Origin: a virus
DNA: 64,000 nt
IMG/VR virus record: IMGVR_UViG_3300021077_000115
Span: 46,064 to 110,063 of that record
Reading direction: 5' to 3' (one strand)
Position numbers and translations under genes: made by a program
In this document: positions 20,487-52,860 of the stretch, one piece after another
How the letters are laid out: each line of letters begins with the position of its first letter
Position numbering within the stretch: position 1 is the first letter of the stretch
The notes under the pieces: model-generated
Told to the model about the DNA's origin: nothing
The model's database searches: none
Seen by the model: only the letters and a program-made list of their open reading frames with translations

Positions 20487-21937
20487 GTAAACTCCAGCAA
20501 ATATCTAAGATTGTGCTGGTCAGTTCTATACAACATCATCTCGTCATTAATAACTCCACTTTGCCCACCCTTAGCCCATACAGAATGATATGGAGCTATT
20601 GATTTTAAAGTATATTGCCCAGGTGATTTTGCCATAAATTGATTTCCTAATGCACAATCGGATACAAATAAGAAAGCCCTATCATCAGAGCCTTTCGCCC
20701 AATATGATGACCTAATATTAGTATAATTGATGCTCTTTGTTGAAGAACTTGATTTATATATTGCCTCCGAGCCGTACATAGAACCAGTAATAATAGCACC
20801 AGCTGGACGAATCAACAAACCAGACTTCAATATACCTGTAATATTTTGTGATCTTGAGCCATGAAACAAAGGAATTACATTGGCATTATGAAACAGATCT
20901 GTATCATATACATCCTTTCTCTTTGTAACAATACCCATCTGATCTGGAATTACTTGCTTACCACATTGTTTTGATATTTCTTTAGCTCTGCCTAAGAAGC
21001 GATCACGTTCTCCATTGCGCTGTATATCCCAAGCATTCAAAAGAGTAATCTTGCCGAGGTAATGATGATTACTGGCTCGTGTATCTTGTACTAACCTATC
21101 CAACCAACCGAACCTATAATCTGTTTTTTCTATAAAACAAAACTCTGTATCCAAAGATTTGTATTGATCATATACTGAGTTGCTTGTAAGTGTAGCCCCA
21201 ATGGATTTTGCATCCAATAAGGTATCAAGCTCATCCTCTAAAACAGCAACCTTCTGATCACTATCAATCAATAAATGCATCATCTGACCACGAGCACCAG
21301 CTCCAAGATTATGAGGAATCAATCCATAGAATTGATTAGTTAAATCCAATAAATCATTATAGTTCTTATTAGAAGCCAAGATGCGTTTAGCTGCCACTAG
21401 ACAGGCACGACCACGATCTACCTGATCATTGGTTAGCTGTCCAAGAGGACACTTTAGAGTTTTAATAACCCAATTATTGGTTGCTCCCATTAGCACAGAA
21501 ACAATTCTGAATGTTTCTACATGAATAGAAGGCTGTGATGGAGTTGCGGATGAGTCAGCATTTTTTAACTGAACAGTCTTAACATGCTTCTTGGCCTCAT
21601 CGCTACCGAGGGTGCGCTGAGCTACATCAATTTCAACATAACCTTTCTTGAGCTTGGCCTTCTTGATAGAGTTGAACTCAGCCTCGGCAGCAGCACGATC
21701 TGTACCGAAATATCTCCAGTTACTTGCTTGAATTGTTCCAGTGGGTCCGTGTTGAGAAAAAATCTGACATGTATCATCTTTACCTACTTGCAGTTCCATA
21801 TGATACATCTTGTTACTTGAACCACAAGTGCCGGATTTTTCTCCTATCATATCGAAGAAGTTTAGTTCTAAAATCCAGCCTGCAGGAACTTCGTAATCTG
21901 TAATTGTTGCTCGTTTATCTGCTTTTACTTTTGCCAT
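20471..21937 (-). CDS. poly(ADP-ribose) polymerase (PARP) homolog with WGR, helical regulatory and catalytic ART domains
   Basis: A WGR-like N-terminus (WILELNFFDMIGEKSG...NKMYHMELQV...RYFGTDRAAAEAEFNSIKKAKLKKGY) is present. The catalytic signature is LFHGSRSQNITGILKSGLLIRP (H), MYGSEAIYKSSSS (Y) and VINDEMMLYRTDQHNLRYLLEF (E). This matches the PARP1 blocks HGSR..N..GIL..GL, YF...SKSA.Y and YNEYIVY...NLKYLL. Confidence 0.8.
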   Translation of the reverse strand: MAKVKADKRATITDYEVPAGWILELNFFDMIGEKSGTCGSSNKMYHMELQVGKDDTCQIFSQHGPTGTIQASNWRYFGTDRAAAEAEFNSIKKAKLKKGYVEIDVAQRTLGSDEAKKHVKTVQLKNADSSATPSQPSIHVETFRIVSVLMGATNNWVIKTLKCPLGQLTNDQVDRGRACLVAAKRILASNKNYNDLLDLTNQFYGLIPHNLGAGARGQMMHLLIDSDQKVAVLEDELDTLLDAKSIGATLTSNSVYDQYKSLDTEFCFIEKTDYRFGWLDRLVQDTRASNHHYLGKITLLNAWDIQRNGERDRFLGRAKEISKQCGKQVIPDQMGIVTKRKDVYDTDLFHNANVIPLFHGSRSQNITGILKSGLLIRPAGAIITGSMYGSEAIYKSSSSTKSINYTNIRSSYWAKGSDDRAFLFVSDCALGNQFMAKSPGQYTLKSIAPYHSVWAKGGQSGVINDEMMLYRTDQHNLRYLLEFTCQRN

Positions 21938-27900: not shown

Positions 27901-28953
27901 TCAATTCCTTTCTTTGAGCAATCGGAATAGATCGATTGTCATTTTAGGCGTGGTGTACGCTACTTGAAAGCGAACACTTTCATACTTCTGATTCTTGAGA
28001 ACAGCATCACCTCGGCCCAACAAAGTCTCCGCCCCGATGCGATCTAGAATCACAACGCTATCGGTTTTGGATGCCGTCTTGCAAGCAATACGACCTGGGA
28101 AGTTGGCTTTGATCAGGCCAGTGATAACGCTAACGCTCGGACGTTGCGTTGCCAGCACCATGAAAATGCCAGCGGCGCGACCCTTTTGAGCCAACTTCAC
28201 GATCAGGGTTTCGAGCTTGTGACCCTTGTCCTGAATCATTAGGTCTGCAACCTCATCAATGATACACAGCACGAGCGGGATTTTCTTAGGATCCTCTTCG
28301 ATGCTGCGCATACCAATCTCACCCATCTCGCGGTAGCGGCGCTCCATCATTGCTGATAGGCCTTCGAGTTGGTTGAGAGTTTCTGTGTACGTGGAGGCTA
28401 CTTCTGAAACTACACCACTAAGTTCTTCAGACCTATAGTCTTGAAACTCAATTCGTTTCGGATCATTTAGATAGATCCAAACGTTGCGCCAGCGCACCGT
28501 ATCAAGCATAATGCAATTTGCAATCAGCGTGTGAAGCAAAGTGGACTTGCCTGAGCCGGTGCTGCCGGCGATTAGTAGATGGGGATTGTTGTTCATATCC
28601 ATCCACAGCTTGCGTCCCTCATCACTCTCGCCCAACAACATGGGGAACACCATGTTGTCAGGTATCATCTCGTTGTAGAACAGGTTTGTCAGCGGTATGG
28701 GCTGTGCTTTTTCAAGCGCAACCTGTAGCCGTACAATACCCTGCTCGGGCACGAGCCTCATGATCGGGACGGTTTCCGATTGAATGGCCAATGCAATTTG
28801 CTTGGCACTGCGTTCGAGCCTTCCAAGCACTGATGGTTTGGTTGCTAGTTTGACGTCGAAGAACGCCAGGTGGCGATTCCTCTCTGCCCGTACGCAACTT
28901 CCATCAATGCCGAGATCACTCAACACACCATTCATTTGAGCTTGAATAGACAT
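27901..28953 (-). CDS. FtsK/SpoIIIE-family DNA translocase ATPase domain protein
   Basis: Walker A is HLLIAGSTGSGKST. Walker B is LCIIDEVADLM. The FtsK motor blocks LATQRPSVSVITGLIKANFPGRIACKTASKTDSVVILD..GAETLLGRGD are present. Confidence 0.8.
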   Translation of the reverse strand: MSIQAQMNGVLSDLGIDGSCVRAERNRHLAFFDVKLATKPSVLGRLERSAKQIALAIQSETVPIMRLVPEQGIVRLQVALEKAQPIPLTNLFYNEMIPDNMVFPMLLGESDEGRKLWMDMNNNPHLLIAGSTGSGKSTLLHTLIANCIMLDTVRWRNVWIYLNDPKRIEFQDYRSEELSGVVSEVASTYTETLNQLEGLSAMMERRYREMGEIGMRSIEEDPKKIPLVLCIIDEVADLMIQDKGHKLETLIVKLAQKGRAAGIFMVLATQRPSVSVITGLIKANFPGRIACKTASKTDSVVILDRIGAETLLGRGDAVLKNQKYESVRFQVAYTTPKMTIDLFRLLKERN

Positions 28954-34548: not shown

Positions 34549-35481
34549 CTAGCTGGCCTTTGCCGTCTTCGCTCGGGTTCGCTTTGCCTTTGGCTCCTTA
34601 GCCACTGGCGCTGTCAACGTCAAAGGCTCTACAGCCTTAGTCACAACAGGTGCTGCAGCTGGCGCAGCTTCAATACCAATCTTAGCCATCTCCTCGGCGA
34701 TCTTTTCTTCCGACATGCCAATGGCACGCAGTGAAGCACGAAGAGCATCCGCCATACCGGTGTTCTTGACTGGCGCTGACACTTCAGTAATCGTGGCGCT
34801 CGGATTCTCAATCTTCACCTGCACCGCAGCGTTCAGCTTCTCGATGAACCTGTCAGAATATCTGGAAGAATCGAAGGTGGGCTTGGACAACGTATCCATG
34901 AGCACCTTGCCCATTGCCATCTCGACCGGAGAAATCTGTACGTTCGCACACTTGTTATCGAAGCCGCGAACCTCTGTGTCGTAGAACATCTGGTACATGA
35001 CGAGGCCGTGTTGATAAGCACGGATTGCCACAAGATGTTCCTTGCCACGTGCTACGTATGTTCCAACTGCCGCTCGATTATGAGCCTTGAGAAGTTCATA
35101 CAAGAACTTGTAACCCTTATCCATGCCCTTGTCAGGCGCGGTGTAGTACGTTTGCTCGACATGCAGAGGATCAATTTCGCTTGTCGGCACGAACTCGGCA
35201 ATGTCCAGCGAGTCTTTCTTCGCCGCTTGCATGTTCGCCACTTCTTCTTCCGTGAATATAACGTATTGGTCCTTGGCGTATTCGTAGCCCTTTACAGAGT
35301 CACTACGCAGAACCTCTGCTAGCGTAACCGAATCAACCAACTTCTGACTGAGTCGGTTCCCAGTTTTGGGATTGATCATGTTGAAGCTCACAGACTCGGC
35401 ACCCGCCGCCTTGTATAGCTTGATAGCAATTTGTGCCATTCCAAAACTAAGAACTACTCGTCCGACTGATCGTGCTGACAT
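34549..35481 (-). CDS. ku: Ku (NHEJ DNA-end-binding protein) homolog
   Basis: The N-terminus SVGRVVLSFGMAQIAIKLYKA matches the bacterial Ku pattern (isFGLV.iPVkLysA). The core LVAIRAYQHGLVMYQMFYDTEVR is present. A lysine/alanine-rich basic C-terminal tail is present. Confidence 0.8.
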   Translation of the reverse strand: MSARSVGRVVLSFGMAQIAIKLYKAAGAESVSFNMINPKTGNRLSQKLVDSVTLAEVLRSDSVKGYEYAKDQYVIFTEEEVANMQAAKKDSLDIAEFVPTSEIDPLHVEQTYYTAPDKGMDKGYKFLYELLKAHNRAAVGTYVARGKEHLVAIRAYQHGLVMYQMFYDTEVRGFDNKCANVQISPVEMAMGKVLMDTLSKPTFDSSRYSDRFIEKLNAAVQVKIENPSATITEVSAPVKNTGMADALRASLRAIGMSEEKIAEEMAKIGIEAAPAAAPVVTKAVEPLTLTAPVAKEPKAKRTRAKTAKAS

Positions 35482-37068: not shown

Positions 37069-37306
37069 TCAACCCACGCGCCAGTAGGTAGCCCTGGATG
37101 GTTGATAAATCTCGATTGGTAGCCGAGAATGCCAAGTAGAATTCAGGGCACCTATCACCAAGGTATGGCAGCGCGTTTTTCAATTGTTCTTCCATGGCTA
37201 GCAAATCGTTATCGGAGATATGATTCCCCATTCGAAGTGCTTTCCATGCATTGTTCAATGATCTCTCTTTGGGCTTACTCATGTGCCGGTTTCCAAATCT
37301 CTTCAA
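37058..37306 (-). CDS. hypothetical protein
   Basis: An 82-aa ORF. Confidence 0.4.
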   Translation of the reverse strand: MKRFGNRHMSKPKERSLNNAWKALRMGNHISDNDLLAMEEQLKNALPYLGDRCPEFYLAFSATNRDLSTIQGYLLARGLIGR

Positions 37307-40300
37307 ACCGTCCCTTGAGTTGTCGTCGATACCTCACCAGGATCCTTTCCAAAACCCTGTATGAAACCTCGTCTTCTTCTCGTAGGCACATTCCAATCCA
37401 TCGAGACATAAAGGCGTCCGGCTTATTGAACCCCATTTGGTCTCGTGTCTCAGCGCCATCGCATACGCTGATCATGTATTCCAATGCGTCCCGTAACATT
37501 GCCATGCGACCTGGCGTTAGCTCCGGTTCCGGGACGTTGTTGACCTTCGCCGATTCGCGAGCAAGCACTCCATGCAACCGTTCAAGCGCCAACTCTCGGT
37601 CAACCTCTTCGCCAGCTGCATTGATACGAGCCATCATCTCGTCATCGGTCTCTTCAATCACCGCAACCCCAGGTAGCCGAGGCGGTGGTGGGTTGAATTT
37701 TATGCTGGCCTCAAGCGCCTTGTACGCAAGAGCAATCTTACGAGCAAGTAGCTTTTGGATGTGTCGATCAAGTGGATGATTTGACCGCATCCTCATGATC
37801 AAAACGTGGCTGCCAGAAGCACCGATACGAACAAGACGATCCTCAGCTTGGATATTCCATGAAGGAGTCCAGTGCAAGTCAACGAACAGAGCATTCGTTG
37901 CCCGAGTCAACGTAAACCCTACGCCACCAGTCTTGATTGTTAGGGCTATTCCCTTCAACAATCCGTCTTGGAATTCCTTGACGAAGTTGCGTCTGGTTTC
38001 TGGGTCAGTGTCCCCAGTGATGATTCTCCAACCAGCACGATCCTGCAGTGCTTCGATTGGTTCCTTGTGAGCGCTGAACACTACCAGTGGCGTTCCTGAA
38101 TCTTCGTAGCTTTCTACCATCTCAAGCATCGCTGGGATGCGTGACCTGGCCAGCATTGCACGAATCTCCGAGAACTCCTTGAAGTCCGGAAGCTCTTCGA
38201 GATCAAGTTCCGCTTCGTAGTCGAAATCATCGTCGATTTTCTTGCCGGTTACTTTACCAACAAAGGTATTAAGTGTCTTGTTCAGCGTTCCGTCACAATC
38301 AACCTCGATGTCCTGGTAGACCTTGGGCGGTAGGTCTTTCAACACCTCAGTCTTCAACCTCCGTAACATGACCCGTTGCATTCGCTCGGGTACCTCGGGC
38401 ATCGGATCTCCGAATTCGTATCCTCCCCATCCATTCTTGTACCCATTGAACAACCTCAGGAAGTTGTCCCAGCTACCAAACACATTTATGTTGCCAGCTG
38501 ACAAGACGCCAAACAAATCCAGAGGGTTATTCATCAATGGCGTGCCAGATAGAGCCCAGACTCGCTTGCTGATTCTTGTGATTTGGCTAACCTTCTGTGA
38601 CCGTGCCGTCTTGTAGTTTTTGACGAGGTGAAATTCGTCTCCAATCACTGTCGTTTCACTCAGCGCTTGCTCTTGTGCCGGTGTTAGGTTGGCTACAAGA
38701 ATCGGCTTGCCCTTCTTCGATACCTTACCACTATCTTTCTTCGGCGAGAGATAGTTAGGAAGGATGTCGTAGTTGACAATCACAATCTCACCAGGCTCAG
38801 GGATCTTGAACGGTATCGCTTTGGTCTTCTTACCTTCAGCTAATGCCTTTTCTACCGTCTCTTCTTTGCCGCTGCAGATTGTAACTCGGTAACTCGGACG
38901 CCACATCTGAATTTCGTCGCGCCAATTGTACTTCAACGACGCCGGGCAAATTACCAACACCCTTTCGTTGTCGGGCAGCGCTACGATTGCCTGCACCGTG
39001 TTGTGCGTTAGAATATAGTCTCGTGTAACGTATAGATGATCCTTTGCTTCGACACGAATACAAACACAATCCTCCTGACCAGCTGGGAAGATATCTGTGA
39101 TAGCGTGTGTCGATGGGTATTTTGTAGGAGGAATGAACCGCTCTACCTTGCGCGGAATTCTGAACGGTACCATTCCACTAGGAAGTTTGATACGAATTCT
39201 AAAATCTGGCAGCCCAGCTTTCTTTTCTCCGTTATGTGTGAAGAGCGGAATCCGGCTTGACATCAATGCGATACCACCGAGGCTTCGCACCAAAGAACAA
39301 ACCTGACTTGCAAGAACAGGGGAAGTTGTATTGTATTCAATACACATTCCATCCTTAGAAATTGTCCCATCATTATCCAATAGGCCTTGTAGCAGGTTAA
39401 GTCTTTGACCTGCTGAGGCAAGCATGTACTCTTCTGGAACAAATCTATCTTGGCTCTGTAGCCCTTTCAGGCACAAGTTATCAAGTACTTGGGTAATCGG
39501 ATTGGTATCTTGATTTTCAGGACCTAGATACGAAAGACGGTATGTGCAATCGTCACTCTGTGATAGGTAAATTCCAACTGGAAGATACTCCTTGAATGCA
39601 GCTCGTTGTTCATCATCACCGGCATGAGTTATTGTAGTTGCACACAATCCGCCGTTTGCAATCAACGCACCCAATAAGTAGGGATGCATCGGAAGGTCTG
39701 TTTCATCAAACTCAACCGGCTGTACCATTGGAATGAAGAATTTATGATTTTCATTCCTATCTTTCAAACCCAATGCATTCAGATCCTTCAATGAATGCAC
39801 TCGAATTCTGCCTGGATTGCGAACACGATCATTTGGAGTTTGAACAGCCCAAAGATGATCTTCACAACAGCGGGTACGAGCATCATCAGAAAGGACGATC
39901 TCGAAGATATCTTTTACACCCTGGGGAAACACCCCATCAACTCTAGTTGGTCTTCCATTGGAACCAATTACAAAATCACCAACTTTCAAAGTCCCGATTG
40001 GAACCCATCCTTTTGGTGTGAGAACTGGTTCTGAAACAGGCTGCGCCTTGCCCAAACCCATGTCGTCGGCCAAGAAGAACCGTTCGTGCAACGCGAGGGC
40101 TTTGACACCCTCCGTCTGAAACCCGAACAACGTCTTGCCATTGACGCTAATCGCATTCGCACGAGCAACTGCTTCGCGACTCTCTTCAGTACCAGCTTCA
40201 ACCAACGCACGAAGCGATTCCGGAACTTCCAACTTGAGCTGATCGGCAATTTCAACCACTCGCGGAAGGTCGGCAGGCTTCATACTCACTTGCCAGTAGA

Positions 40301-40589
40301 CCTGATCCTTCGGAAGGTTCTCTGGATTGAAGCGCGCCCCCGGAAATGATCTAATCAGTGGAATTGCGTCTCTGTCAAATGGCATGTATACTTTGCCATC
40401 CTCGGTGAGTTTGCGCACCACATTCTTATCAGTAACACTTGAACTAATTTCAAGACCGAGATGGCGATGGCAAGCAGCAGAAGCACAGGCCGTAAACCAT
40501 CCGCTGCCATTGTTGTACGCAAACCCAGCACCAACCTTGACCAACATCCCACAACATTGGCATTTTTTGGAGTATTTATTAACAATCAT
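37275..40589 (-). CDS. SNF2/SWI2-family helicase (Rad5/RapA-like) interrupted by an intein in motif I
   Basis: The extein motif I is LADDMGLGK|TVQAIVAL once residues 212-560 are removed. Motif II is DEFHLVKNY. Motif III is LSGTPLMNNPLDLFGVL. Motifs IV-VI are VVFSAHKEP..., GGVGFTLTRATNALFVDLHWTPSWNIQAEDRLVRIG. An N-terminal CQCCG zinc motif is present. The start is taken at M31 (MIVNKYSKK, AGGAA 9 nt upstream). The track start at 40679 would overlap the HNH gene on the opposite strand. Confidence 0.85.
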   Translation of the reverse strand: MIVNKYSKKCQCCGMLVKVGAGFAYNNGSGWFTACASAACHRHLGLEISSSVTDKNVVRKLTEDGKVYMPFDRDAIPLIRSFPGARFNPENLPKDQVYWQVSMKPADLPRVVEIADQLKLEVPESLRALVEAGTEESREAVARANAISVNGKTLFGFQTEGVKALALHERFFLADDMGLGKAQPVSEPVLTPKGWVPIGTLKVGDFVIGSNGRPTRVDGVFPQGVKDIFEIVLSDDARTRCCEDHLWAVQTPNDRVRNPGRIRVHSLKDLNALGLKDRNENHKFFIPMVQPVEFDETDLPMHPYLLGALIANGGLCATTITHAGDDEQRAAFKEYLPVGIYLSQSDDCTYRLSYLGPENQDTNPITQVLDNLCLKGLQSQDRFVPEEYMLASAGQRLNLLQGLLDNDGTISKDGMCIEYNTTSPVLASQVCSLVRSLGGIALMSSRIPLFTHNGEKKAGLPDFRIRIKLPSGMVPFRIPRKVERFIPPTKYPSTHAITDIFPAGQEDCVCIRVEAKDHLYVTRDYILTHNTVQAIVALPDNERVLVICPASLKYNWRDEIQMWRPSYRVTICSGKEETVEKALAEGKKTKAIPFKIPEPGEIVIVNYDILPNYLSPKKDSGKVSKKGKPILVANLTPAQEQALSETTVIGDEFHLVKNYKTARSQKVSQITRISKRVWALSGTPLMNNPLDLFGVLSAGNINVFGSWDNFLRLFNGYKNGWGGYEFGDPMPEVPERMQRVMLRRLKTEVLKDLPPKVYQDIEVDCDGTLNKTLNTFVGKVTGKKIDDDFDYEAELDLEELPDFKEFSEIRAMLARSRIPAMLEMVESYEDSGTPLVVFSAHKEPIEALQDRAGWRIITGDTDPETRRNFVKEFQDGLLKGIALTIKTGGVGFTLTRATNALFVDLHWTPSWNIQAEDRLVRIGASGSHVLIMRMRSNHPLDRHIQKLLARKIALAYKALEASIKFNPPPPRLPGVAVIEETDDEMMARINAAGEEVDRELALERLHGVLARESAKVNNVPEPELTPGRMAMLRDALEYMISVCDGAETRDQMGFNKPDAFMSRWIGMCLREEDEVSYRVLERILVRYRRQLKGRFEEIWKPAHE
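39000..40046 (-). mobile_element. intein (349 aa) with double-LAGLIDADG homing endonuclease domain, inserted in the SNF2 P-loop; class-3-like (N-terminal Ala, W-C-T pattern, terminal HN, +1 Thr)
   Basis: Block A is AQPVSEPVLTPKGWVPIGTLKVGDFV. Block B is RTRCCEDHLW. The endonuclease motifs are YLLGALIANGG and LLQGLLDNDGTI. Blocks F and G are CVCIRVEAKDHLYV...ILTHN, followed by T. Removing this span restores a canonical GLGKTVQAI in the extein. Confidence 0.75.
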
Positions 40590-40636
40590 GATATTATTCC
40601 TAGTCGAGGCTTTGTTGTTAGCGCCATCTAATTCAG

Positions 40637-41242
40637 ATGAAGAAGACTTGCCCAAAATGTAACAGTGAAAAACTAACAAAGTTCTTCAGCAAGAATCATA
40701 AAGCACCAGACGGATTAGCTTATTACTGCAAGAAGTGCAGTTCTGATTGTGCAAAGGATTTTAGAAGTAAACCTCTTCCAAATATCAAAACAACAATTAA
40801 GAGGTTTGAATCTAAGTTTGAAAAGTCTGGCAGTAATGATTGCTGGTTGTGGAAGTCTTCAATTAATCAAAATGGGTATGGTGTCTTTGGGGTTGGCGGT
40901 AAAGTTCTGACAGCTTCGCGAGTGGCATATGAACTTTACATTGGCCAAATTCCAACAGATAAACTTGTACGTCACAAGTGTGACAACCCGCCATGTGTAA
41001 ATCCAAATCACCTTGAGCTTGGAACAAACCTTGATAACTCTGGAGATATGGTAAACAGAGAGCGGGTTGCGCGAGGAGAGTCTAGTGGATTATCTAAGAT
41101 TAGCGAGACTGATGTTAGAAATATCATCAGGTTAAGAAGTGAAGGGATAACTCAACAAGCAGTTGGAGATATGTTTGGTTTGTCTAGATCACAAATATCA
41201 AACATTGAAAGAGGGATTAGCTGGAATCAACAGGCCCAATAG
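40637..41242 (+). CDS. HNH homing endonuclease (HNH_3 type) with N-terminal zinc ribbon and C-terminal HTH
   Basis: An N-terminal CPKCNS...CKKCS ribbon is present. The HNH core is CWLWKSSINQNGYGVF...ASRVAYELYIGQIP.DKLVRHKCDNPPCVNPNHLELGT. The C-terminal HTH is ITQQAVGDMFGLSRSQISNIERG. It lies on the plus strand among minus-strand genes. Confidence 0.8.
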   Translation: MKKTCPKCNSEKLTKFFSKNHKAPDGLAYYCKKCSSDCAKDFRSKPLPNIKTTIKRFESKFEKSGSNDCWLWKSSINQNGYGVFGVGGKVLTASRVAYELYIGQIPTDKLVRHKCDNPPCVNPNHLELGTNLDNSGDMVNRERVARGESSGLSKISETDVRNIIRLRSEGITQQAVGDMFGLSRSQISNIERGISWNQQAQ

Positions 41243-41371
41243 TGAAGTGCTTAACCGTAGCTATACCTACGCAGCCCTCAGGAACCTTGTTTACCATTGG
41301 AATGAACATAAAAACCTCTCTGGTAAAACCCTGATATATATTCTGGCGAGTCTAAACCAAAAGGTGACAGA

Positions 41372-42418
41372 ATGAAATATGCTTATTTGACAACAATCGT
41401 AACATCCGCAATGCTGAGTGGCTGCCCATCCCCCACACCAACTCCCGTAGCAAATACCGGAGGAAACTTTTCAACCGGGGGAAAATTTGCAACTGGTGGA
41501 AGGTTTTCAACCGGAGGCAATCTTGCAACTGGAGGTGCATCACGCGGTGGCTCTTCTGCAACAGGCGGAAGCTTCGGCGGCGCTGCAACAGGTGGAGAAT
41601 CTTCGGCAACAGGCGGAAGCTTACCATGCGTAACCACCGTTTGGCCAAGCGTCATAATCACCCCACCAAAAACAGCAACAAAAACACAGCATAAGTTCAT
41701 CGAACGTCACGTGCGGCCTCGTGCCAGAGCTATGTCAGCCACCGCTTTCTACGGAGCGGCTCCCGTGCAATGTGATTTGGCTCATTTTCCGAATAGTACA
41801 ACGCCACTGAACCAAGGCAAGTACGGAGCTTGTACTGGTTGCGCGTCTGATGGTGTTATCTCCAGCTTACCATTCATTGGAATCCCACATTTCAACCTGA
41901 CAACCGCCCTTCAGATCTATCAAGGAGGAACATGTAAAGATAATGGGTGTGCGTTCCCATGTACCTGTGCCTCTTGTCCTGCAGCATTTTGCCCAGCCAC
42001 AGGAGCAAATGATAACGGAAGCCAAGGAAGCTCTGTATTTGACTACCTAGTTTACATGGGCTGGATGAAAGGCTACGTAACAGCCGATACTACAGACGAT
42101 CTTCTCGCCGGTCTTTCGTATAGCTCATGCGAAATTGGTATTGATTACTACTATTCCATGATGACGCCAGCTTCAAACGGTAGGTTGGTTGTTACAATCT
42201 CCTCAGGAATCGCGGGCGGACACGAACTCGATGTCGTTGGCTATCGAAGTGACTTCCAAGGCGTTGTGATTCGCAATAGCTGGGGCCCTTGGGGTCAGTG
42301 CTATCCAAACCAAGAGACTTCCAATACATCGAAGGACGGAACAGGTTGCGGTTTCGCTTGGATCGCTGTTAGCGACTTGCCAACATTGAACTTCGATGGT
42401 GATTGTGTTGTATTGTAA
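41372..42418 (+). CDS. secreted lipoprotein with Gly-rich TGG repeats and papain-like (C1 family) cysteine peptidase domain
   Basis: The lipobox is MKYAYLTTIVTSAMLSGC. The low-complexity stretch (FSTGG/FATGG/SATGG) x7 follows. The C1 triad context is QGKYGACTGCAS (Cys), GGHELDVVGY (His) and VIRNSWGPWG (Asn). Confidence 0.55.
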   Translation: MKYAYLTTIVTSAMLSGCPSPTPTPVANTGGNFSTGGKFATGGRFSTGGNLATGGASRGGSSATGGSFGGAATGGESSATGGSLPCVTTVWPSVIITPPKTATKTQHKFIERHVRPRARAMSATAFYGAAPVQCDLAHFPNSTTPLNQGKYGACTGCASDGVISSLPFIGIPHFNLTTALQIYQGGTCKDNGCAFPCTCASCPAAFCPATGANDNGSQGSSVFDYLVYMGWMKGYVTADTTDDLLAGLSYSSCEIGIDYYYSMMTPASNGRLVVTISSGIAGGHELDVVGYRSDFQGVVIRNSWGPWGQCYPNQETSNTSKDGTGCGFAWIAVSDLPTLNFDGDCVVL

Positions 42419-42449
42419 TAAGAAAAAAGAAAGCACTAAAGAAAGCCGC

Positions 42450-42638
42450 TTAGCTATCCTCAATCTCTGTTTGAGATGTGAAATACGTGTGCGTATGTCG
42501 CTCCCAAAAGAACTTGCGGCCACAATGAGGGCAGGTATCCTCACCAGAATCTACCCTCATCGCTATCGAAATACAGTAGCCAAGCTCTTGTGAATCTAGT
42601 AACTCGCCGCAGTGCGGGCAGTACGCTGATGCACTCAT
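42450..42638 (-). CDS. small zinc-ribbon protein
   Basis: The 62-aa ORF has a CPHCG...CPHCG pair. Confidence 0.4.
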   Translation of the reverse strand: MSASAYCPHCGELLDSQELGYCISIAMRVDSGEDTCPHCGRKFFWERHTHTYFTSQTEIEDS

Positions 42639-43429
42639 TGTAAAAATCCTAACAGTTGTTGCAGAACTTTCAACATGATGTTGACCTTATTCCTTCTGGT
42701 TCCGTGGCTCCTGAATGTCCTGTCCTTCGCGCACAGTTGACATTTGGCGCATTGCACAGTAGGAAGAACCTTTGGTCGATGACTGCCCATTTCAGCCTTC
42801 GTTCGCCTCTTTTGTTTGGGCATCTCGGCAGGACATACAATCACATGCCGACCTTGAGGAGTCCGCATCTTCTTTGGTGCGTCACTATCAACCACCACAA
42901 CCACCGGAGCAATGCCAAGCTCCGCAAGTTCATCGGCTTCACTCAAACTATCAGCACTGACGTTGATATGAAAGCCTGATTTGTTTGCGGCATAGATTGC
43001 TTGGGCGTTTACCAATGCCTGACCGCTACGTCCAACAGGTTTGTGCGTGTATGTAAAGCCGCAAGCCCTTGATTTATTGTTGGCATCAACCAATTGTTGT
43101 AGGGCTTTGGTATCAATCGAGTTTCCAATCCCAGGAAGATCCCCTGCAGTGTTGTGACGCCACAATTGATTCTTCGGAAGCTGGCCAATGTTGCCGCAAA
43201 ACTCATCCCATGTGATTGGTGTGATTGCCTTTCGATGGCCATTCCCACCAACGTTATATCCGCCGTTGTTCAGAGCCTCCCACATGAATCCAAGGGGTGA
43301 AAAGTATGGGTAACATAACTTACCAGCCTTGAATGGACATGCCGAAGGACATGATGATTGTTCTGTCATACTGGTTGGGATTGGGCCAGTCTTCACGTTC
43401 ATCGAAACACGAGAAAATCCTACTAGCAT
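42635..43429 (-). CDS. hypothetical protein with N- and C-terminal Cys clusters
   Basis: The 264-aa ORF has N-terminal SCPSACPF...C and C-terminal CAKCQLC motifs. Confidence 0.45.
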   Translation of the reverse strand: MLVGFSRVSMNVKTGPIPTSMTEQSSCPSACPFKAGKLCYPYFSPLGFMWEALNNGGYNVGGNGHRKAITPITWDEFCGNIGQLPKNQLWRHNTAGDLPGIGNSIDTKALQQLVDANNKSRACGFTYTHKPVGRSGQALVNAQAIYAANKSGFHINVSADSLSEADELAELGIAPVVVVVDSDAPKKMRTPQGRHVIVCPAEMPKQKRRTKAEMGSHRPKVLPTVQCAKCQLCAKDRTFRSHGTRRNKVNIMLKVLQQLLGFLQ

Positions 43430-47660: not shown

Positions 47661-49553
47661 TTAATTCTTGACCGTTTTTGAAGGCTCATCCGCACTATTA
47701 CCTTCTCCTGACCCTTCTTGCTTTTCCCACAACACAGCACGTTGGCAGTAGTAGCCAAGTTGATATTCTGTTGAAAGCCGCAGATCACTAATAAAGTCAT
47801 CATGCTTAAATGATGTAATGACACTTTCGAGCAATTGTTCCATATTATAAAGGAACCCACCAGCCTTAGATGCCAGCTGAGCTTTGTATGGAACAAGTGC
47901 TAGTGAAATCGTCCTCCACGTTGACGATGGCCTATCCGCAAAACACTGAGTCAACCGCGCAGCATTTGTCTGACGTTGATCCTTTGGGTTTGGATTTGAA
48001 AGATACAGAGCAAAGCCCTCTATGCGCTCGGCAATTGCCAACAATCTCCCAAACAAATAGTCTCTGGATGTACGGTTCTCTTCGAGTGTCATCTCATATT
48101 TCCTTTGGTAAAAAGTACCACGATAAAGGGCGCATGCAATCCCTAAACATTTTTCAAACTCCCATTTTTCCAAACCAACTCGATTCGATACTCTGCGAGA
48201 TATTGACTCAACCAAATCTCGTGGAACAGTTACATCATCAATAATACATGGCAGCAATCTCTCAACAGTTGCCTTCTTGAGCTTGTCATCCAACCGACGG
48301 CCATACGCCGCCTCTGCAATATCTCTCGGCGCTGGAGCTCCAACGAATCGGTGCTCCTTACCAAAATTCTGCTTCCATGAATATTGCAGATGCCACTTCT
48401 CAAGCCGTTCTAGAAAGTCCGAGCCCTTCAAATCCCTATAGTAAGGTATTGCTAAACGCCCAGGAGTTGCGGAGTCAAGAACCATCACCACTACATTTTC
48501 ATTACCAGAAAGATTTGATTTATATCCGGCAATTGCCCTCGATAGCCGCTTAGCAAACGCTTGACCTACGTCGGTGGCCCTATCTGTTTCTTCCTCAATT
48601 CCAAAGATGGTCATCGTGTCATCGCATAGGCTCGGTATCACCTTTCCACTTACGGCCCAAGAGACGATTGCCTGGGTATCATTTCTGAATGACTGTCTGC
48701 CAATCAACCACCGAAGCGCATTGTGGGCCTTGTGAGTTGCCTCGAACCCAATCGTTATTGCTTCATTGGAGTTTGTGAATTTTCCACGAAACGTGTAATT
48801 TTTATCGTCATTAGACGATATTAATTTTGCATTATCTGCCGTGTGTCGAATTTTTTTAGGATGCTTCGTTGTGAGTGGAACTTCCTGTCCCGTTATCATG
48901 CATATCCCAAATATAGATTCCTGCTTCGAAACATACTCTGACCACGCATTTAGAAGGGTAGGATCTTCCCAAGTGCCTGAGGCTAAGTCATTTTCATGCT
49001 CAACTCTCCAACGTACGAAAGCATCCGATTGGTTACCGCTGATGATCGCCTTACAAATTTCAGGCGTGTTATCTTTTCCACCAACCCATTGCGCAGGTAG
49101 CTTTCCCTTACTGTCGGCAAATAATACCTTGGCCCCTATAAGGTCTGTAATTACCTGCATCTTTTTGACATACTTAAGGATAGCAATTAGCTTCGGATGC
49201 TTTGAGGTGTTGGTAAAGTTTACAAGCGCATCAAGATATGCGCTATGAAATTTTTCTGCGCCAGAAACCTTTTCAGAGAAATCTCCCGCCACATACTTCA
49301 GCTTATCACAAAGGGGGTGGGCGGTTGAATCGCAGGTTCTGCACGCTGAATCATCTGTGCAAGGAATTATGGTTGGCTGATCCCGCTTGGCAAGTACAGA
49401 AGCCCTTCGAAAGTTACCATTGCCATCGAGGACAATCTCTATTTGTGCCAGCTGGCTTGTATGGGAGATTGGATAAATATCTTCAGATTCTGGAACGTTC
49501 TGATTGTCCTTACAGCAATCATACGTCTCTATCAATCTATGCATCCAGCTCAT
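47661..49553 (-). CDS. cas8c: Cas8c (Csd1), type I-C large subunit
   Basis: Its 630-aa size and position between cas5c and cas7 fit. The N-terminal pattern MSWMHRLIETYD...IYPISHTSQLAQIEIVLDGNGNF resembles Csd1 N-termini. Confidence 0.75.
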   Translation of the reverse strand: MSWMHRLIETYDCCKDNQNVPESEDIYPISHTSQLAQIEIVLDGNGNFRRASVLAKRDQPTIIPCTDDSACRTCDSTAHPLCDKLKYVAGDFSEKVSGAEKFHSAYLDALVNFTNTSKHPKLIAILKYVKKMQVITDLIGAKVLFADSKGKLPAQWVGGKDNTPEICKAIISGNQSDAFVRWRVEHENDLASGTWEDPTLLNAWSEYVSKQESIFGICMITGQEVPLTTKHPKKIRHTADNAKLISSNDDKNYTFRGKFTNSNEAITIGFEATHKAHNALRWLIGRQSFRNDTQAIVSWAVSGKVIPSLCDDTMTIFGIEEETDRATDVGQAFAKRLSRAIAGYKSNLSGNENVVVMVLDSATPGRLAIPYYRDLKGSDFLERLEKWHLQYSWKQNFGKEHRFVGAPAPRDIAEAAYGRRLDDKLKKATVERLLPCIIDDVTVPRDLVESISRRVSNRVGLEKWEFEKCLGIACALYRGTFYQRKYEMTLEENRTSRDYLFGRLLAIAERIEGFALYLSNPNPKDQRQTNAARLTQCFADRPSSTWRTISLALVPYKAQLASKAGGFLYNMEQLLESVITSFKHDDFISDLRLSTEYQLGYYCQRAVLWEKQEGSGEGNSADEPSKTVKN

Positions 49554-50382: not shown

Positions 50383-52860
50383 TCAATCAGACCAAGTAAC
50401 CCCGAAGTCGTTGTAATAGCCATCATCTAAGTAGTAAATTGATGAGCCTTCTTGGATAGGGTGAATGGCATTAAGATCCATTAATTTTTTGCAATCAGTA
50501 TCAAAAATATTAACTGTGAATTGCTGCGCTCTGCGAAGTAGTTTGAATTCAGTTTCCAAATTAGCCGAACGTAGTTCATTGATTATTTCAATACCATCTT
50601 TATAAGGAACGACTACTCCAGTGGTTCGCGAATCAATAGGGTTAAAGGCCTTGGCGGCAGTAGAAAACGACTGCCACATCATATTCTTATCAAGATCTCC
50701 GTATGTTTTATCATAGGAGACTACTGAGATTGCGTTCGTTGAAAGCAGTTGAAGCAATGAATCAGATCTGCCAATATCATTAGCTTGATTGGCAGTAACG
50801 TTGTACTCCATTTCGCCGCGTCGTTTGAAGAAATAACCTTCGTAAAAAGCATTCATGGCAGCCAATCCAATTATATCACCATCAAATTTCTGTGGGTCTG
50901 CTTGGAAGTCTGCCAAGATTCTTTCTGAAACCTCAATGCCTTTTTTGATATCAACCAAGCTGCTTATGTTTTCAATCTCTTTCGCTGGATTAGTAATGGA
51001 CACAATTCCCATTTCACGCTCACCATTGCGGTTACAACGACCAGCCGCCTGAGCAATAGAATCCAGCCCAGCTAAACACCGTATAACTGCGCCAAAATCA
51101 ACATCAACTCCGGCCTCAATAAGCTGAGTGCTAACACAAATTATATTCTCCTTGCGTTTCAAGTGCCCTCGTACCTTAGCTAATATCTCACGCCGATGGG
51201 TTGAGCACATATTAGTGCTAAGATGATACAATGGTAACTTCGTATCCTTGAGTGCCAGACACACCGCCTTGGCTGTCTTTTTTGTATTCACAATCACCAA
51301 GCAACTTCCAGCTTGCTCTGCTTTTTCCTGAGCGGAGCTGGCAATCTCTGCAGCTTGCCAACCTTCAGGCTTTCTACAATCAACTACCTTTACACGTTTC
51401 AGGTCATTGAATAAACGCTGAACGTCTGGAATAATTTCTGTAGCCTGCTTGATCGCACCCTTCTTTTGGTCAACCTTGCTAAGAAGAGGTTGTGTCGCTG
51501 TGCAAAGAACTACTGAGCAGCCACATTGCTCAACTAAGAAGTTGATTGCGTTGTTGAACATATGAATGCATTTTATGGGTAGCGTTTGGATCTCGTCAAA
51601 TATAATAACCGAATTCGCCAGCTGATGTAGTCTCCTAACATTGCGTGTTCCACTACCAAAAATAGCTTCAAGAAATTGCACATGTGTAGAAAAAACTACC
51701 GGTGCATCCCAGTTCTCTGTTAGGATTCTATCTTTCCAAATTCTACTCTTATCTTGCCACTTAGAAACCATCTCATCATCGTCATTCTTTTTCTCATTCA
51801 CCACATTACAATGGTGTTCAAGCACCACCTGTGTGTTACCCTCTGGTCTATTCTTAGGTTCTAAGATTTCCCTAACTACATCAGCATTCTGATCAATGAT
51901 TGAGGTAAATGATATAAAATTAAATACTCGTTTTAAATTATGTATTTTGGCGTGATGTAAACCAAACCTTAAGCTACCAAGTGTTTTGCTTCCTCCAGTA
52001 GGAACTGATAACGTAAAAATACCAGGTAGACGAACAGCGGCTTCGCGACAATTCCTAGATACGTTATTTCGAATTAAATCAATTTGGCGAGTTCCAAGAG
52101 CATATGAATTAACTTTCTTCTCAAGCCGCTCAATCAACACATCCCATGATACGTAATTACCATTCAAACGAAATTTTCCAAAATTTGGTTTTTCGAAGTC
52201 GGCGGTATCGGTTCTATCAGCATCAATCAAACCACTAAATAAATATCTCACCAACAACCCAACTTGGAATTTTGATACCATTATGCTGTTGCTGGAGTTG
52301 GTTGCAATATTTTTGATTACATCTATCAATCTATCTACAAACCCAGGCCTTCCAATAATTTCCAAACTCCGCCTAACTAATTCATATTCTGCATTAGAAA
52401 CCACCTCATCGAAGTTCACGTCCTTACTAGCACGGCGCGTAAATTTATCTTCAGCCGGATTTGGTGCCAAGCAGTCAATTAAACCAGAATGGTGAGAACA
52501 TACACAAAGAAAAAGAATCTGACCAACAAGCCTGCCGCATACACCTTGCTTCGACAATTCACGCCAGATAAATTGTGCCCCAGCTGTTGCATGATCAATC
52601 TTGCCTTTGTATTCAGAAACGTCTACAAACCCCGCATCTCCGGGTTTTAGTAATCCAACTCCTGATTTGATGTAGTTCTGAAATTTAGAGCTGTACTTAC
52701 CGAGATCGTGTAGTAATCCGATTAGCTCACCATGATCTGCCAGCCCTATCTTTTCTGCGCAAATTCTGGATATCTTAGCTACACCTTCTAGATGTTCTTG
52801 AACGGTTTGTGTGATGCCATCTTCTTCTCGTAAATGAGCTATATAAGTCATCTTACCCAC
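50383..52860 (-). CDS. cas3: Cas3 (HD nuclease + DExH helicase), type I signature protein
   Basis: The N-terminal HD domain is HLEGVAKISRICAEKIG.ADHGELIGLLHDLGKYS..FQ. Helicase motif I is VPTGGSKT. Motif II is IFDEIQT. The C-terminal helicase domain runs for 825 aa in total. Confidence 0.9.
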   Translation of the reverse strand: MGKMTYIAHLREEDGITQTVQEHLEGVAKISRICAEKIGLADHGELIGLLHDLGKYSSKFQNYIKSGVGLLKPGDAGFVDVSEYKGKIDHATAGAQFIWRELSKQGVCGRLVGQILFLCVCSHHSGLIDCLAPNPAEDKFTRRASKDVNFDEVVSNAEYELVRRSLEIIGRPGFVDRLIDVIKNIATNSSNSIMVSKFQVGLLVRYLFSGLIDADRTDTADFEKPNFGKFRLNGNYVSWDVLIERLEKKVNSYALGTRQIDLIRNNVSRNCREAAVRLPGIFTLSVPTGGSKTLGSLRFGLHHAKIHNLKRVFNFISFTSIIDQNADVVREILEPKNRPEGNTQVVLEHHCNVVNEKKNDDDEMVSKWQDKSRIWKDRILTENWDAPVVFSTHVQFLEAIFGSGTRNVRRLHQLANSVIIFDEIQTLPIKCIHMFNNAINFLVEQCGCSVVLCTATQPLLSKVDQKKGAIKQATEIIPDVQRLFNDLKRVKVVDCRKPEGWQAAEIASSAQEKAEQAGSCLVIVNTKKTAKAVCLALKDTKLPLYHLSTNMCSTHRREILAKVRGHLKRKENIICVSTQLIEAGVDVDFGAVIRCLAGLDSIAQAAGRCNRNGEREMGIVSITNPAKEIENISSLVDIKKGIEVSERILADFQADPQKFDGDIIGLAAMNAFYEGYFFKRRGEMEYNVTANQANDIGRSDSLLQLLSTNAISVVSYDKTYGDLDKNMMWQSFSTAAKAFNPIDSRTTGVVVPYKDGIEIINELRSANLETEFKLLRRAQQFTVNIFDTDCKKLMDLNAIHPIQEGSSIYYLDDGYYNDFGVTWSD

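What the first reader, a model, noticed from the sequence alone, without database searches (positions are those of the whole stretch)
39000..40046. Intein with LAGLIDADG endonuclease splitting the Walker A motif of the SNF2 helicase
Seen: removing residues 212-560 (AQPVSEP...YILTHN) rejoins LADDMGLGK to TVQAIVAL, giving a canonical SNF2 motif I GLGKT. The insert begins with Ala rather than Cys or Ser, ends in His-Asn and is followed by Thr. It has block-A-like LTPKGWVPIGTLKVGDFV, block-B-like CCEDHLW, two LAGLIDADG motifs (YLLGALIANGG and LLQGLLDNDGT) and block F/G CVCIRVEAKDHLYV..ILTHN. Inference: the Trp (block B), Cys (block F) and Thr (block G-5) pattern with a non-nucleophilic first residue is what class 3 (WCT) inteins look like. 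Established: class 3 inteins are rare and occur mostly in phage helicases, DnaB and related proteins.
Basis: partly seen in the sequence, partly recalled or inferred. Interest (0 to 1): 0.55.

Follow-up and report, generated by a model that had tools for sequence, protein, structure and literature searches.

The report
Class 3 intein in phage helicase
A self-splicing, mobile protein insert (a class 3 intein with a homing endonuclease) splits the ATP-binding loop of an SNF2 helicase gene; it is real and looks recently mobile, but it belongs to a large, already described family.

Summary
Window 39000-40046 (minus strand) is a 349-codon in-frame insert between Lys and Thr of the SNF2 Walker A motif GLGK|T.

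An intein-free orthologue (87% identical protein) has an uninterrupted GLGKTVQAIVAL. Its DNA aligns to both flanks and leaves exactly this 1047-nt gap.

The interpretation also holds. The insert is a HINT domain plus a LAGLIDADG endonuclease (AlphaFold pLDDT 95.8; best fold match PI-SceI, E 7e-18). It has:
- Ala1, His64 and Trp66 in block B
- Cys329 at block F position 4
- Thr347-His348-Asn349 in block G, then Thr+1

These residues are invariant in 34 of 34 relatives. They align with the catalytic residues of the proven class 3 intein Msm DnaBi1.

The copy in a related contig is 97% identical in DNA, while the exteins are 81-91% identical (dS 0.09 against 0.35-0.78). This indicates recent horizontal transfer. 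Intein dN/dS is 0.11.

It is not new in kind. Class 3 inteins in the P-loops of phage SNF2, DnaB and terminase genes were described in 2010. The same intein type sits at the same site in Mycobacterium phage Alice gp175 and PhiPA3 gp233. The family has thousands of metagenomic members. Splicing itself is untested.

Verdict: new member of a known kind, low to moderate interest.

The parts
37275..40589 (-). SNF2-family helicase precursor gene (1104 aa plus stop), start at ATG 40589
   Evidence: Pfam SNF2-rel_dom 9.5e-25, one stretch 172-775 that spans the insert, and Helicase_C 3.2e-9. Orthologues start at the same Met.
40047..40589 (-). N-extein (aa 1-181), ending in the first half of Walker A, GLGK (40047-40058)
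   Evidence: It aligns to the intein-free locus L001 at 82.6% DNA identity.
39000..40046 (-). Intein, 349 aa (aa 182-530): HINT splicing domain interrupted by a LAGLIDADG endonuclease domain
   Evidence: Exact 1047-nt gap against the empty allele L001. AlphaFold pLDDT 95.8. Foldseek top hits PI-SceI, TliVMA and PI-PfuI. GC 0.44 against 0.50 in the exteins.
40008..40046 (-). Block A (AQPVSEPVLTPKG); Ala1 at 40044-40046 is a non-nucleophilic first residue
   Evidence: In the family, position 1 is A21/E3/Q2/L2/F/M/S and never Cys.
39843..39878 (-). Block B (RTRCCEDHLWAV): His64 (B:10, 39855-39857) and Trp66 (B:12, 39849-39851)
   Evidence: Invariant in 34/34. They align to H-x-W of Msm and Mch DnaBi1 and to gp41-1_WCT His63/Trp65.
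39132..39749 (-). LAGLIDADG homing endonuclease domain (about aa 100-305). Motif 1 is YLLGALIANGG (39648-39680), with Asn131 where the family consensus has Asp. Motif 2 is LLQGLLDNDGT (39363-39395), with Asp226.
   Evidence: Pfam LAGLIDADG_3 is weak, 0.005. Fold match to PI-SceI. Motif 2 aligns to the PI-PkoII and PI-SceI second motif.
39024..39071 (-). Block F (DCVCIRVEAKDHLYVT); Cys329 (F:4, 39060-39062) is the predicted initiating nucleophile
   Evidence: Invariant in 34/34. It aligns to the Cys in '..vrCvevd..' of Msm DnaBi1 (catalytic Cys118 per PMC6195587) and to the engineered Cys107 of gp41-1_WCT.
39000..39008 (-). Block G: Thr347 (G:5), His348, Asn349
   Evidence: Invariant in 34/34. 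THN is found in 134/135 full-length relatives.
38997..38999 (-). Thr+1: the first C-extein residue, which is also the Walker A Thr of GLGKT
   Evidence: In the family +1 is T30/S2 and T127/S7/C1.
37275..38999 (-). C-extein (aa 531-1104 plus stop), with DEFH motif II, SGTP motif III, Helicase_C and QAEDRLVRIG motif VI
   Evidence: It aligns to L001 at 83.3% DNA identity. dN/dS against L002 is about 0.10.

Best explanation
The insert is a full-length class 3 (WCT) intein. It consists of a HINT splicing domain carrying a LAGLIDADG homing endonuclease, and it sits between Lys and Thr of the Walker A motif of an SNF2-family helicase. The host is probably a very large phage or a similar mobile genome. 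Inferred mechanism, following the pathway established for class 3 inteins: (1) The precursor is translated with a broken P-loop and is presumably unable to bind or hydrolyse ATP. (2) Cys329 (block F:4), assisted by His64 and Trp66 (block B) and Thr347 (block G:5), attacks the Lys(-1)-Ala1 peptide bond. This gives the block F branched thioester. (3) The N-extein is transferred to the hydroxyl of Thr+1, giving the block G branched ester. (4) Asn349 cyclises with help from His348 and releases the intein. (5) An O-to-N shift produces the native GLGKT P-loop and an active helicase. At the DNA level, the endonuclease is expected to cut intein-free alleles in co-infecting relatives and copy the intein in by repair (homing). 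What is shown: the anatomy, the exact boundaries, the conservation of the catalytic residues, the existence of an empty allele, and intein/extein divergences that indicate recent transfer. What is inferred: splicing competence, the order of the chemical steps, and endonuclease activity.
For: - Boundaries: the intein-free allele L001 reads TTGGGAAAG|ACAGTGCAAGC (GLGK|TVQ) and aligns to both flanks of an exact 1047-nt gap. About 96 of 120 orthologues are intein-free with GxGK[T/S].
- Fold: pLDDT 95.8. Foldseek gives PI-SceI at 7e-18, then TliVMA and PI-PfuI, and the class 3 mini-inteins 6riy, 6rix and 6bs8 at about 1e-5.
- Sequence: the best PDB matches are gp41-1_WCT and the class 3 DnaB inteins. 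The end-to-end alignment with Msm DnaBi1 places H64/W66, C329 and T347-H348-N349 on its H-x-W, block F Cys and THN.
- Conservation: H64, W66, C329, T347, H348 and N349 are invariant in 34 relatives of 31-56% identity. Position 1 is never Cys, and +1 is T or S. The same pattern holds in 135 further copies.
- Definition: these are the class-defining features in Tori et al. 2010 (PMC2807308) and Kelley et al. 2016 (PMC5050341).
- Selection and mobility: against the copy in L002, intein dN/dS is 0.11. Intein dS is 0.094, against 0.78 for the N-extein and 0.35 for the C-extein (Fisher p = 5e-14). Flanking genes are only 64-75% identical.
- Independent invasions: P0055 has an 80% identical extein but only a 41% identical intein at the same site.
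- Extein constraint: extein dN/dS is 0.10-0.14, which implies the helicase is still used and therefore that the intein splices.
Against: - No experiment supports splicing. Grafting the WCT triplet onto gp41-1 was not enough for splicing (PMC7664689), so the motifs alone do not prove activity.
- The first LAGLIDADG motif has Asn131 where 21 of 34 relatives have Asp. The endonuclease may therefore be impaired, a nickase, or inactive.
- Pfam intein and LAGLIDADG models match only weakly, below their gathering scores.
- The phage origin of the window is inferred from relatives and gene content. No virion gene was identified.
Confidence: 0.88

Rival explanations
1. It is a decayed or non-splicing intein remnant. 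The HINT/LAGLIDADG insert is retained, but the helicase is permanently disrupted or works with the insert in place, as in the Arthrobacter Arth_1007 intein pseudogene case.
For: Splicing is untested. WCT alone was insufficient in an engineered intein. Asn131 in the endonuclease motif hints at some decay. Intein pseudogenes exist (PMC3196547, listed).
Against: All splicing residues are intact and invariant. Intein dN/dS is 0.11, with no frameshifts or stops. The exteins are under purifying selection (dN/dS about 0.1), and an insert inside GK|T would block nucleotide binding. The 349-aa length is kept exactly in the related copy.
Confidence: 0.07
2. It is a splicing intein that uses a class 2 (KlbA-like) route: Thr+1 attacks the N-terminal junction directly, without a block F branched intermediate.
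For: Like class 2 inteins, it lacks a nucleophile at position 1.
Against: Class 2 inteins lack the WCT triplet (PMC2807308), and here W66, C329 and T347 are invariant. The closest solved and biochemically characterised relatives are class 3 DnaB inteins. In class 3 inteins the block F Cys is absolutely required.
Confidence: 0.03
3. The intein is splicing-competent, but its own endonuclease is dead. In that case the recent spread between genomes came from ordinary recombination between co-infecting relatives, or was driven by a neighbouring free-standing endonuclease such as the HNH gene at 40637-41242.
For: Asn131 replaces the consensus acidic residue of LAGLIDADG motif 1 in both near-identical copies. 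From my own knowledge, Asp-to-Asn changes at this position abolish cleavage in PI-SceI. An HNH endonuclease gene lies about 0.6 kb from the insertion site.
Against: The endonuclease domain shows no decay: dN/dS is 0.11 over the whole intein and the model pLDDT is high. Asn recurs in 8 of 34 family members, which suggests a tolerated variant. The related locus L002 has the same intein but no HNH gene.
Confidence: 0.3

Closest known systems
Class 3 inteins as defined on the mycobacteriophage Bethlehem DnaB intein (Tori et al. 2010, PMC2807308)
   Same: Non-nucleophilic residue 1, Trp B:12, Cys F:4, Thr G:5, His-Asn C-terminus and Thr/Ser +1. P-loop insertion in a helicase-type ATPase, with a LAGLIDADG domain. 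That paper lists SNF2 among the host proteins.
   Different: Different host protein and a distant sequence. This copy sits in an uncultivated large genome and has not been assayed.
Msm DnaBi1 and Mch DnaB1 mini-inteins (PDB 6BS8, 6RIX, 6RIY; PMC6195587, PMC7664689)
   Same: Best natural PDB sequence matches: 1e-6 end to end for 6BS8, with the H-x-W, block F Cys and THN aligned. They sit at the same K|S/T P-loop position, and the +1 residue doubles as the Walker A hydroxyl.
   Different: They are mini-inteins without an endonuclease and reside in bacterial DnaB. Msm DnaBi1 is redox-regulated through Cys48-Cys118. No equivalent was tested here, although this intein has extra Cys at 60, 61 and 327.
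SNF2/HepA-like helicase inteins of cultured phages: Mycobacterium phage Alice gp175 (the 'HEL' intein of cluster C1, Kelley et al. 2016) and Pseudomonas phage PhiPA3 gp233
   Same: Same intein family (35-37% identity over the whole intein) at the same Walker A position: GSGK|AEPV...ALTHN|S and GTGK|AQPL...IVTHN|T.
   Different: The exteins are only distantly related. GenBank and RefSeq annotate these genes as helicase or 'DarB-like antirestriction' and do not mark the intein.
PI-SceI (VMA1 intein) and other LAGLIDADG inteins (TliVMA, PI-PfuI)
   Same: Best whole-molecule fold matches (E 7e-18, TM 0.70-0.75), with the same HINT plus two-motif LAGLIDADG architecture.
   Different: They are class 1 inteins (Cys1 and Cys+1) in V-ATPase or RNR. 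Sequence identity is about 15%. PI-SceI has Asp in both LAGLIDADG motifs.

Membership tests
Intein (HINT-domain protein-splicing element) | In-frame insertion in a conserved host protein whose intein-free orthologues are contiguous at that point | tested here: met
   L001/P0043 reads GLGKTVQAIVAL. There is an exact 1047-nt gap, and about 96 intein-free orthologues exist.
Intein (HINT-domain protein-splicing element) | HINT fold with blocks A, B, F and G | tested here: met
   AlphaFold pLDDT 95.8. Foldseek hits are to PI-SceI, class 3 DnaB inteins, Prp8 inteins and the Hedgehog Hint domain. PDB phmmer gives 1e-10.
Intein (HINT-domain protein-splicing element) | C-terminal His-Asn followed by a Ser/Thr/Cys nucleophile | tested here: met
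   His348-Asn349|Thr+1, invariant in the family.
Intein (HINT-domain protein-splicing element) | Actual excision with ligation of the exteins | not testable with these tools
   Needs expression and SDS-PAGE or mass spectrometry. It is only inferred from purifying selection on the exteins and the intein.
Class 3 intein | No Cys/Ser/Thr requirement at position 1 (typically a non-nucleophilic residue) | tested here: met
   Ala1. In the family, position 1 is A21/E3/Q2/L2/F/M/S, and A in 98 of 135.
Class 3 intein | WCT triplet: Trp at B:12, Cys at F:4, Thr at G:5 | tested here: met
   W66, C329 and T347 are invariant in 34/34. The positions were assigned by alignment to Msm DnaBi1 and gp41-1_WCT, using the residue numbers given in PMC7664689.
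Class 3 intein | Thr or Ser at +1 | tested here: met
   Thr+1. Definition.
Class 3 intein | Obligate block F Cys nucleophile forming the block F branched intermediate | not testable with these tools
   A biochemical criterion (C329A phenotype, trapping of the intermediate). Not addressed here.
Class 1 intein | Cys, Ser or Thr at position 1 | tested here: not met
   Ala1. The boundary cannot be shifted, because the -1/last and 1/+1 residues differ (K/N and A/T) and the empty allele fixes the junction.
Class 2 (KlbA-type) intein | No N-terminal nucleophile and no WCT triplet | tested here: not met
   The WCT triplet is present and invariant.
LAGLIDADG (two-motif) homing endonuclease | Two LAGLIDADG helices, each ending in a catalytic acidic residue | tested here: inconclusive
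   Both motifs and the fold are present. Motif 2 has Asp226. Motif 1 has Asn131 where 21 of 34 relatives have Asp. Cleavage activity was not tested.
SNF2-family helicase (host protein) | SNF2 N-terminal ATPase domain plus Helicase_C, with motifs I, II and VI | tested here: met
   Pfam PF00176 at 9.5e-25 and PF00271 at 3.2e-9. After removing the insert in silico, GLGKT, DEFH and QAEDRLVRIG are present.

The most novel reading that the evidence does not exclude
The intein spread recently between diverged genomes although its endonuclease has Asn instead of the canonical acidic residue in the first LAGLIDADG motif. One possibility is that this recurrent Asn variant (8 of 34 relatives) is a natural LAGLIDADG enzyme with one catalytic centre, possibly a nickase, that still promotes homing. 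A second possibility is that mobility is handed to neighbouring free-standing nucleases such as the adjacent HNH gene. A further unexcluded idea is that the extra cysteines near the active site (Cys60/61 at block B, Cys327 next to Cys329) make splicing, and therefore helicase activation, redox-conditional, as in Msm DnaBi1.
Probability: 0.15. Interest if true: 0.45.

Novelty: new member of a known kind. Interest (0 to 1): 0.27.

Why it matters
For annotation, the gene should be recorded as an intein-containing SNF2 helicase (mature product 755 aa), not as an 1104- or 1134-aa helicase. Public records of related phage genes such as Alice gp175 and PhiPA3 gp233 do not mark the intein.

For biology, this locus is a clear natural example of intein mobility. 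There is an exact empty allele, an occupied allele whose intein is much younger than its host gene, and independent invasions of the same P-loop site by different class 3 lineages. Class 1 inteins also occupy motifs II and VI of the same orthologous helicase.

It adds a full-length, well-modelled class 3 intein with Thr+1 that could be tried as a protein-engineering tool. It does not change what is known about intein mechanisms.

Tried and rejected
- Near-identity DNA search of the gene against 50,697 phage records found nothing. The source is not a deposited phage.
- Pfam and NCBIfam intein models were nearly silent on this insert: LAGLIDADG_3 at 0.005, Hom_end_hint at 0.1, and DnaB/GyrA-with-intein models at 1e-5 to 6e-3. 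Standard domain annotation would miss it, and family-level evidence had to come from homologue searches and structure.
- A family HMM scanned against all six-frame ORFs of the window found no second copy.
- PHROGs and Pfam scans of large neighbouring ORFs found no capsid, portal or tail genes. Terminase appeared only as a weak secondary PHROG hit (1.5e-8) on the FtsK-like ORF 27901-28953. 'Phage' therefore remains an inference.
- The papers on the D. radiodurans Snf2 intein (PMC2923505) and on the expanded class 3 definition (PMC3133030) are not held, and no supplement of PMC2807308 is held. I therefore could not compare the insertion site with the Dra Snf2 intein.
- Model coordinates are not exposed, so I could not measure the distances from Cys329 to the scissile bond or between cysteines.
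- A group I intron or other RNA-level insertion was rejected, because the reading frame is continuous and the insert encodes a complete, conserved protein domain.
- The short plus-strand ORFs inside the intein (39036-39260, 39097-39306, 39795-40034) were treated as chance antisense ORFs.
Full report
**1. What is in the sequence**

The minus strand carries one long ORF, 37275-40679. Its product matches Pfam SNF2-rel_dom (9.5e-25) and Helicase_C (3.2e-9). The SNF2 match is a single stretch, residues 172-775, that runs across a region with no SNF2 similarity.

The string LADDMGLGK | AQPVSEP...YILTHN | TVQAIVAL is present. The 349 codons between the bars are exactly window 40046 down to 39000.

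One correction concerns numbering. The orthologues P0042 and P0001 begin at the Met encoded at 40589 (MIVNKYSKKCQCCG...), which has an AGGA 9 nt upstream. The protein is thus 1104 aa and the insert is residues 182-530.

**2. Is it an insertion?**

I removed the 349 residues in silico and searched with the 755-aa product. About 96 of the best 120 relatives are 680-800 aa long, cover the whole query and have an uninterrupted Walker A. The commonest form is GLGKTVQ, seen 33 times.

The closest of these, P0043 (87% identity, 757 aa), lies on contig L001. Its DNA aligns to window 37275-39002 and to 40047-40592, at 83% identity, with nothing in between. The empty site reads TTGGGAAAG|ACAGTGCAAGC, where the window has TTGGGCAAG|[1047 nt]|ACGGTGCAGGC.

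The boundary cannot be slid. The residues on either side of each junction differ (K/N and A/T).

The insert also differs in composition: GC is 0.44, against 0.50 in both exteins.

**3. What the insert is**

Sequence. The best solved-structure matches are all inteins:
- gp41-1 carrying an engineered WCT motif (6RIZ, 3e-9; 1e-10 for a mini-intein construct)
- the class 3 DnaB inteins of M. smegmatis and M. chimaera (6BS8, 6RIX, 6RIY)
- PI-SceI and PI-PkoII, matching weakly over the middle part

Structure. An AlphaFold model built on a 34-sequence alignment has mean pLDDT 95.8 and pTM 0.93. Its best fold matches are whole LAGLIDADG inteins: PI-SceI (E 7e-18, TM up to 0.75), TliVMA, PhoVMA and PI-PfuI. 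Class 3 mini-inteins, Prp8 inteins and the Hedgehog Hint domain follow.

The insert is therefore a HINT splicing domain, roughly residues 1-100 and 305-349, interrupted by a two-motif LAGLIDADG endonuclease domain.

**4. Which class of intein**

Tori et al. 2010 define class 3 by three features (PMC2807308; restated in PMC5050341, and PMC5222942):
- a non-nucleophilic first residue
- the Trp-Cys-Thr triplet at block B:12, F:4 and G:5
- Thr or Ser at +1

This intein has Ala1, His64-Leu-Trp66, Cys329, Thr347-His348-Asn349 and Thr+1.

I assigned the block positions by alignment, not by eye. In the end-to-end alignment with Msm DnaBi1:
- H64/W66 fall on its H-x-W
- C329 falls on its block F Cys
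- THN falls on its THN

In the alignment with gp41-1_WCT, the same residues fall on His63, Trp65, Cys107 and Thr123. These are the positions that Beyer et al. engineered to mimic the class 3 active site.

Among 34 relatives of 31-56% identity, H64, W66, C329, T347, H348 and N349 are invariant. Position 1 is never Cys (A21, E3, Q2, L2, F, M, S). Position +1 is T30/S2, and -1 is K22/R7.

In 135 further full-length copies from an exhaustive search, position 1 is Ala in 98 and a nucleophile in only 5. The C-terminus is THN in 134. Position +1 is T127/S7/C1, and -1 is Lys in 117.

The criteria for class 1 (nucleophile at position 1) and class 2 (no WCT triplet) are both tested and not met.

**5. 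How it most likely works**

These steps are inferred from the established class 3 pathway:
- Cys329 attacks the Lys(-1)-Ala1 peptide bond, giving a block F branched thioester.
- The N-extein moves to the Thr+1 hydroxyl.
- Asn349 cyclises and releases the intein.
- An O-to-N shift restores GLGKT.

Thr+1 is also the Walker A hydroxyl, as noted for the P-loop Ser of Msm DnaBi1 (PMC6195587). The precursor should therefore be inactive as an ATPase until it splices.

Indirect support for splicing competence:
- The intein is under purifying selection (dN/dS 0.11).
- So are the exteins (dN/dS 0.10-0.14), which would be pointless if the P-loop stayed split.

Direct evidence is lacking. WCT motifs alone did not confer splicing on an engineered intein.

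**6. Evidence of mobility**

The closest occupied allele is P0042 (1122 aa), on 196-463 kb contigs (loci L002 and L003). It carries the same 349-aa intein at the same codon.

| Region (window against L002) | DNA identity | dS |
|---|---|---|
| Intein | 97.1% | 0.094 |
| N-extein | 81.2% | 0.78 |
| C-extein | 91.4% | 0.35 |
| Neighbouring genes | 64-75% | not computed |

The difference in synonymous divergence between intein and exteins is highly significant (Fisher p = 5e-14). The intein copies therefore share a much more recent ancestor than their host genes do. This is the expected footprint of homing or recombinational transfer.

The reverse pattern also occurs. P0055 has an 80% identical extein but only a 41% identical class 3 intein at the same site. 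Orthologues with Ser1 variants (SLxNGT...) also occur at this site. The P-loop has thus been invaded repeatedly.

One caveat: LAGLIDADG motif 1 has Asn131 where 21 of 34 relatives have Asp. Motif 2 has the expected Asp226. The same Asn is in the 97%-identical copy and in 8 of 34 relatives. Whether the endonuclease cuts, nicks or is inactive cannot be decided here.

**7. Comparison with what is known**

Tori et al. [quoted passage not shown] Kelley et al. 2016 call K|T the 'classic' P-loop insertion and list a HepA-related helicase ('HEL') intein in cluster C1 mycobacteriophages.

I confirmed that two cultured phages carry the same intein type at the same site:
- Mycobacterium phage Alice gp175: GSGK|AEPV...ALTHN|S
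- Pseudomonas phage PhiPA3 gp233: GTGK|AQPL...IVTHN|T

The family also sits in PhoH (two sites), RecA, thymidylate-kinase-like and AAA_24 ATPases. It has 5210 cluster representatives at E<=1e-30.

This is therefore a new member of a known kind. It is not a rare object once metagenomes are considered.

**8. Context**

No deposited phage is close. The best phage hit is a 484-kb uncultured phage at 29% identity.

The window also encodes Cas8c and Cas3, a PARP-like protein, Ku and an FtsK-like ATPase. A free-standing HNH endonuclease lies next to the SNF2 start. No virion gene was recognised.

A huge phage is the likeliest host genome, but this is not proven.

**9. Verdict**

Splicing and endonuclease activity remain untested. 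Novelty: new member of a known kind. Interest is about 0.27. Its main value is as a clean natural example of recent intein transfer and as a correction to annotation.

Noticed in passing
window 40637-41242 (+): A free-standing HNH endonuclease with a C-terminal HTH (Pfam HNH_3 2.4e-10; PHROG HNH endonuclease about 1e-30). It is transcribed divergently from the SNF2 start codon, about 0.6 kb from the intein insertion site. Together with the next ORF it lies in a roughly 2.2-kb stretch (40593-42822) that has no counterpart in the related loci L002 and L003, so it is probably a separate mobile insertion.
   Followed up: partly
window 41372-42418 (+): A 348-aa ORF with a lipoprotein-like N-terminus and Gly-rich TGG(x)F(S/A)TGG repeats. 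It has a weak PHROG 'peptidase' match (1.5e-7). By eye, the C-terminal half resembles a papain-like peptidase (GACTGC...GGHELDVVGY...IRNSWG). No Pfam hit at E <= 0.001.
   Followed up: partly
window 47661-49553 (-) and 50383-52860 (-): CRISPR-associated genes: Cas8c/Csd1 (Pfam 2.6e-120) and Cas3 (HD plus helicase plus Cas3 C-terminal domain). This suggests a type I-C-like system in what may be a huge phage genome. The CRISPR array and the other cas genes were not looked for.
   Followed up: no
window 20471-21937 (-), 34549-35481 (-), 27901-28953 (-): A PARP-like protein (WGR, PARP regulatory and PARP catalytic domains), a Ku homologue (2e-39) and an FtsK/SpoIIIE-like ATPase. Ku, a DNA ligase and FtsK are also found near the SNF2 gene in the related locus L002.
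   Followed up: no
window 39654-39656 (-), intein residue Asn131: The first LAGLIDADG motif reads ALIANGG, with Asn where the family consensus has the catalytic Asp (family column: D21, N8, C3, E1, A1). The same Asn is in the 97%-identical copy in L002, even though the divergence pattern points to recent transfer.
   Followed up: partly
orthologues P0053, P0058, P0067, P0069, P0099, P0048, P0057, P0068 (not in the window); equivalent window residues about 300, 570 and 225-247 of the spliced protein: The same orthologous SNF2 helicase carries other inserts elsewhere. There are class 1 inteins in motif II (DE|CFPG...VSN|CH) and in motif VI (QAEDRL|CIA...VHN|CRIGQ). A roughly 171-aa Cys-rich insert that does not look like an intein sits at 225-247. 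The gene is an intein hot spot with at least three independent insertion sites.
   Followed up: partly
relatives P0004, P0009-P0013, P0016, P0021, P0029, P0041 (PhoH-like proteins, not in the window): The same class 3 intein family also occupies a second, non-Walker-A site in PhoH-like ATPases. There it sits after a conserved (A/L)(F/Y)(M/L)RGR motif (MRGR|AQP...THN|T), with Arg at -1.
   Followed up: no
L004 (Mycobacterium phage Alice gp175) and L005 (PhiPA3 gp233): Public records annotate these intein-containing SNF2/HepA-like helicases as 'DNA helicase', 'DarB-like antirestriction' or 'putative SNF2 domain helicase', with no intein feature. Other hits label the intein part as 'homing endonuclease' or even 'terminase large subunit'.
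   Followed up: partly
P0042 cluster (loci L002 and L003): The closest relative of the whole gene is named 'SNF2-related protein [Candidatus Pacearchaeota archaeon]' in NCBI, but it sits on 196-463 kb contigs full of short unannotated genes. This is possibly a mis-binned huge phage.
   Followed up: no
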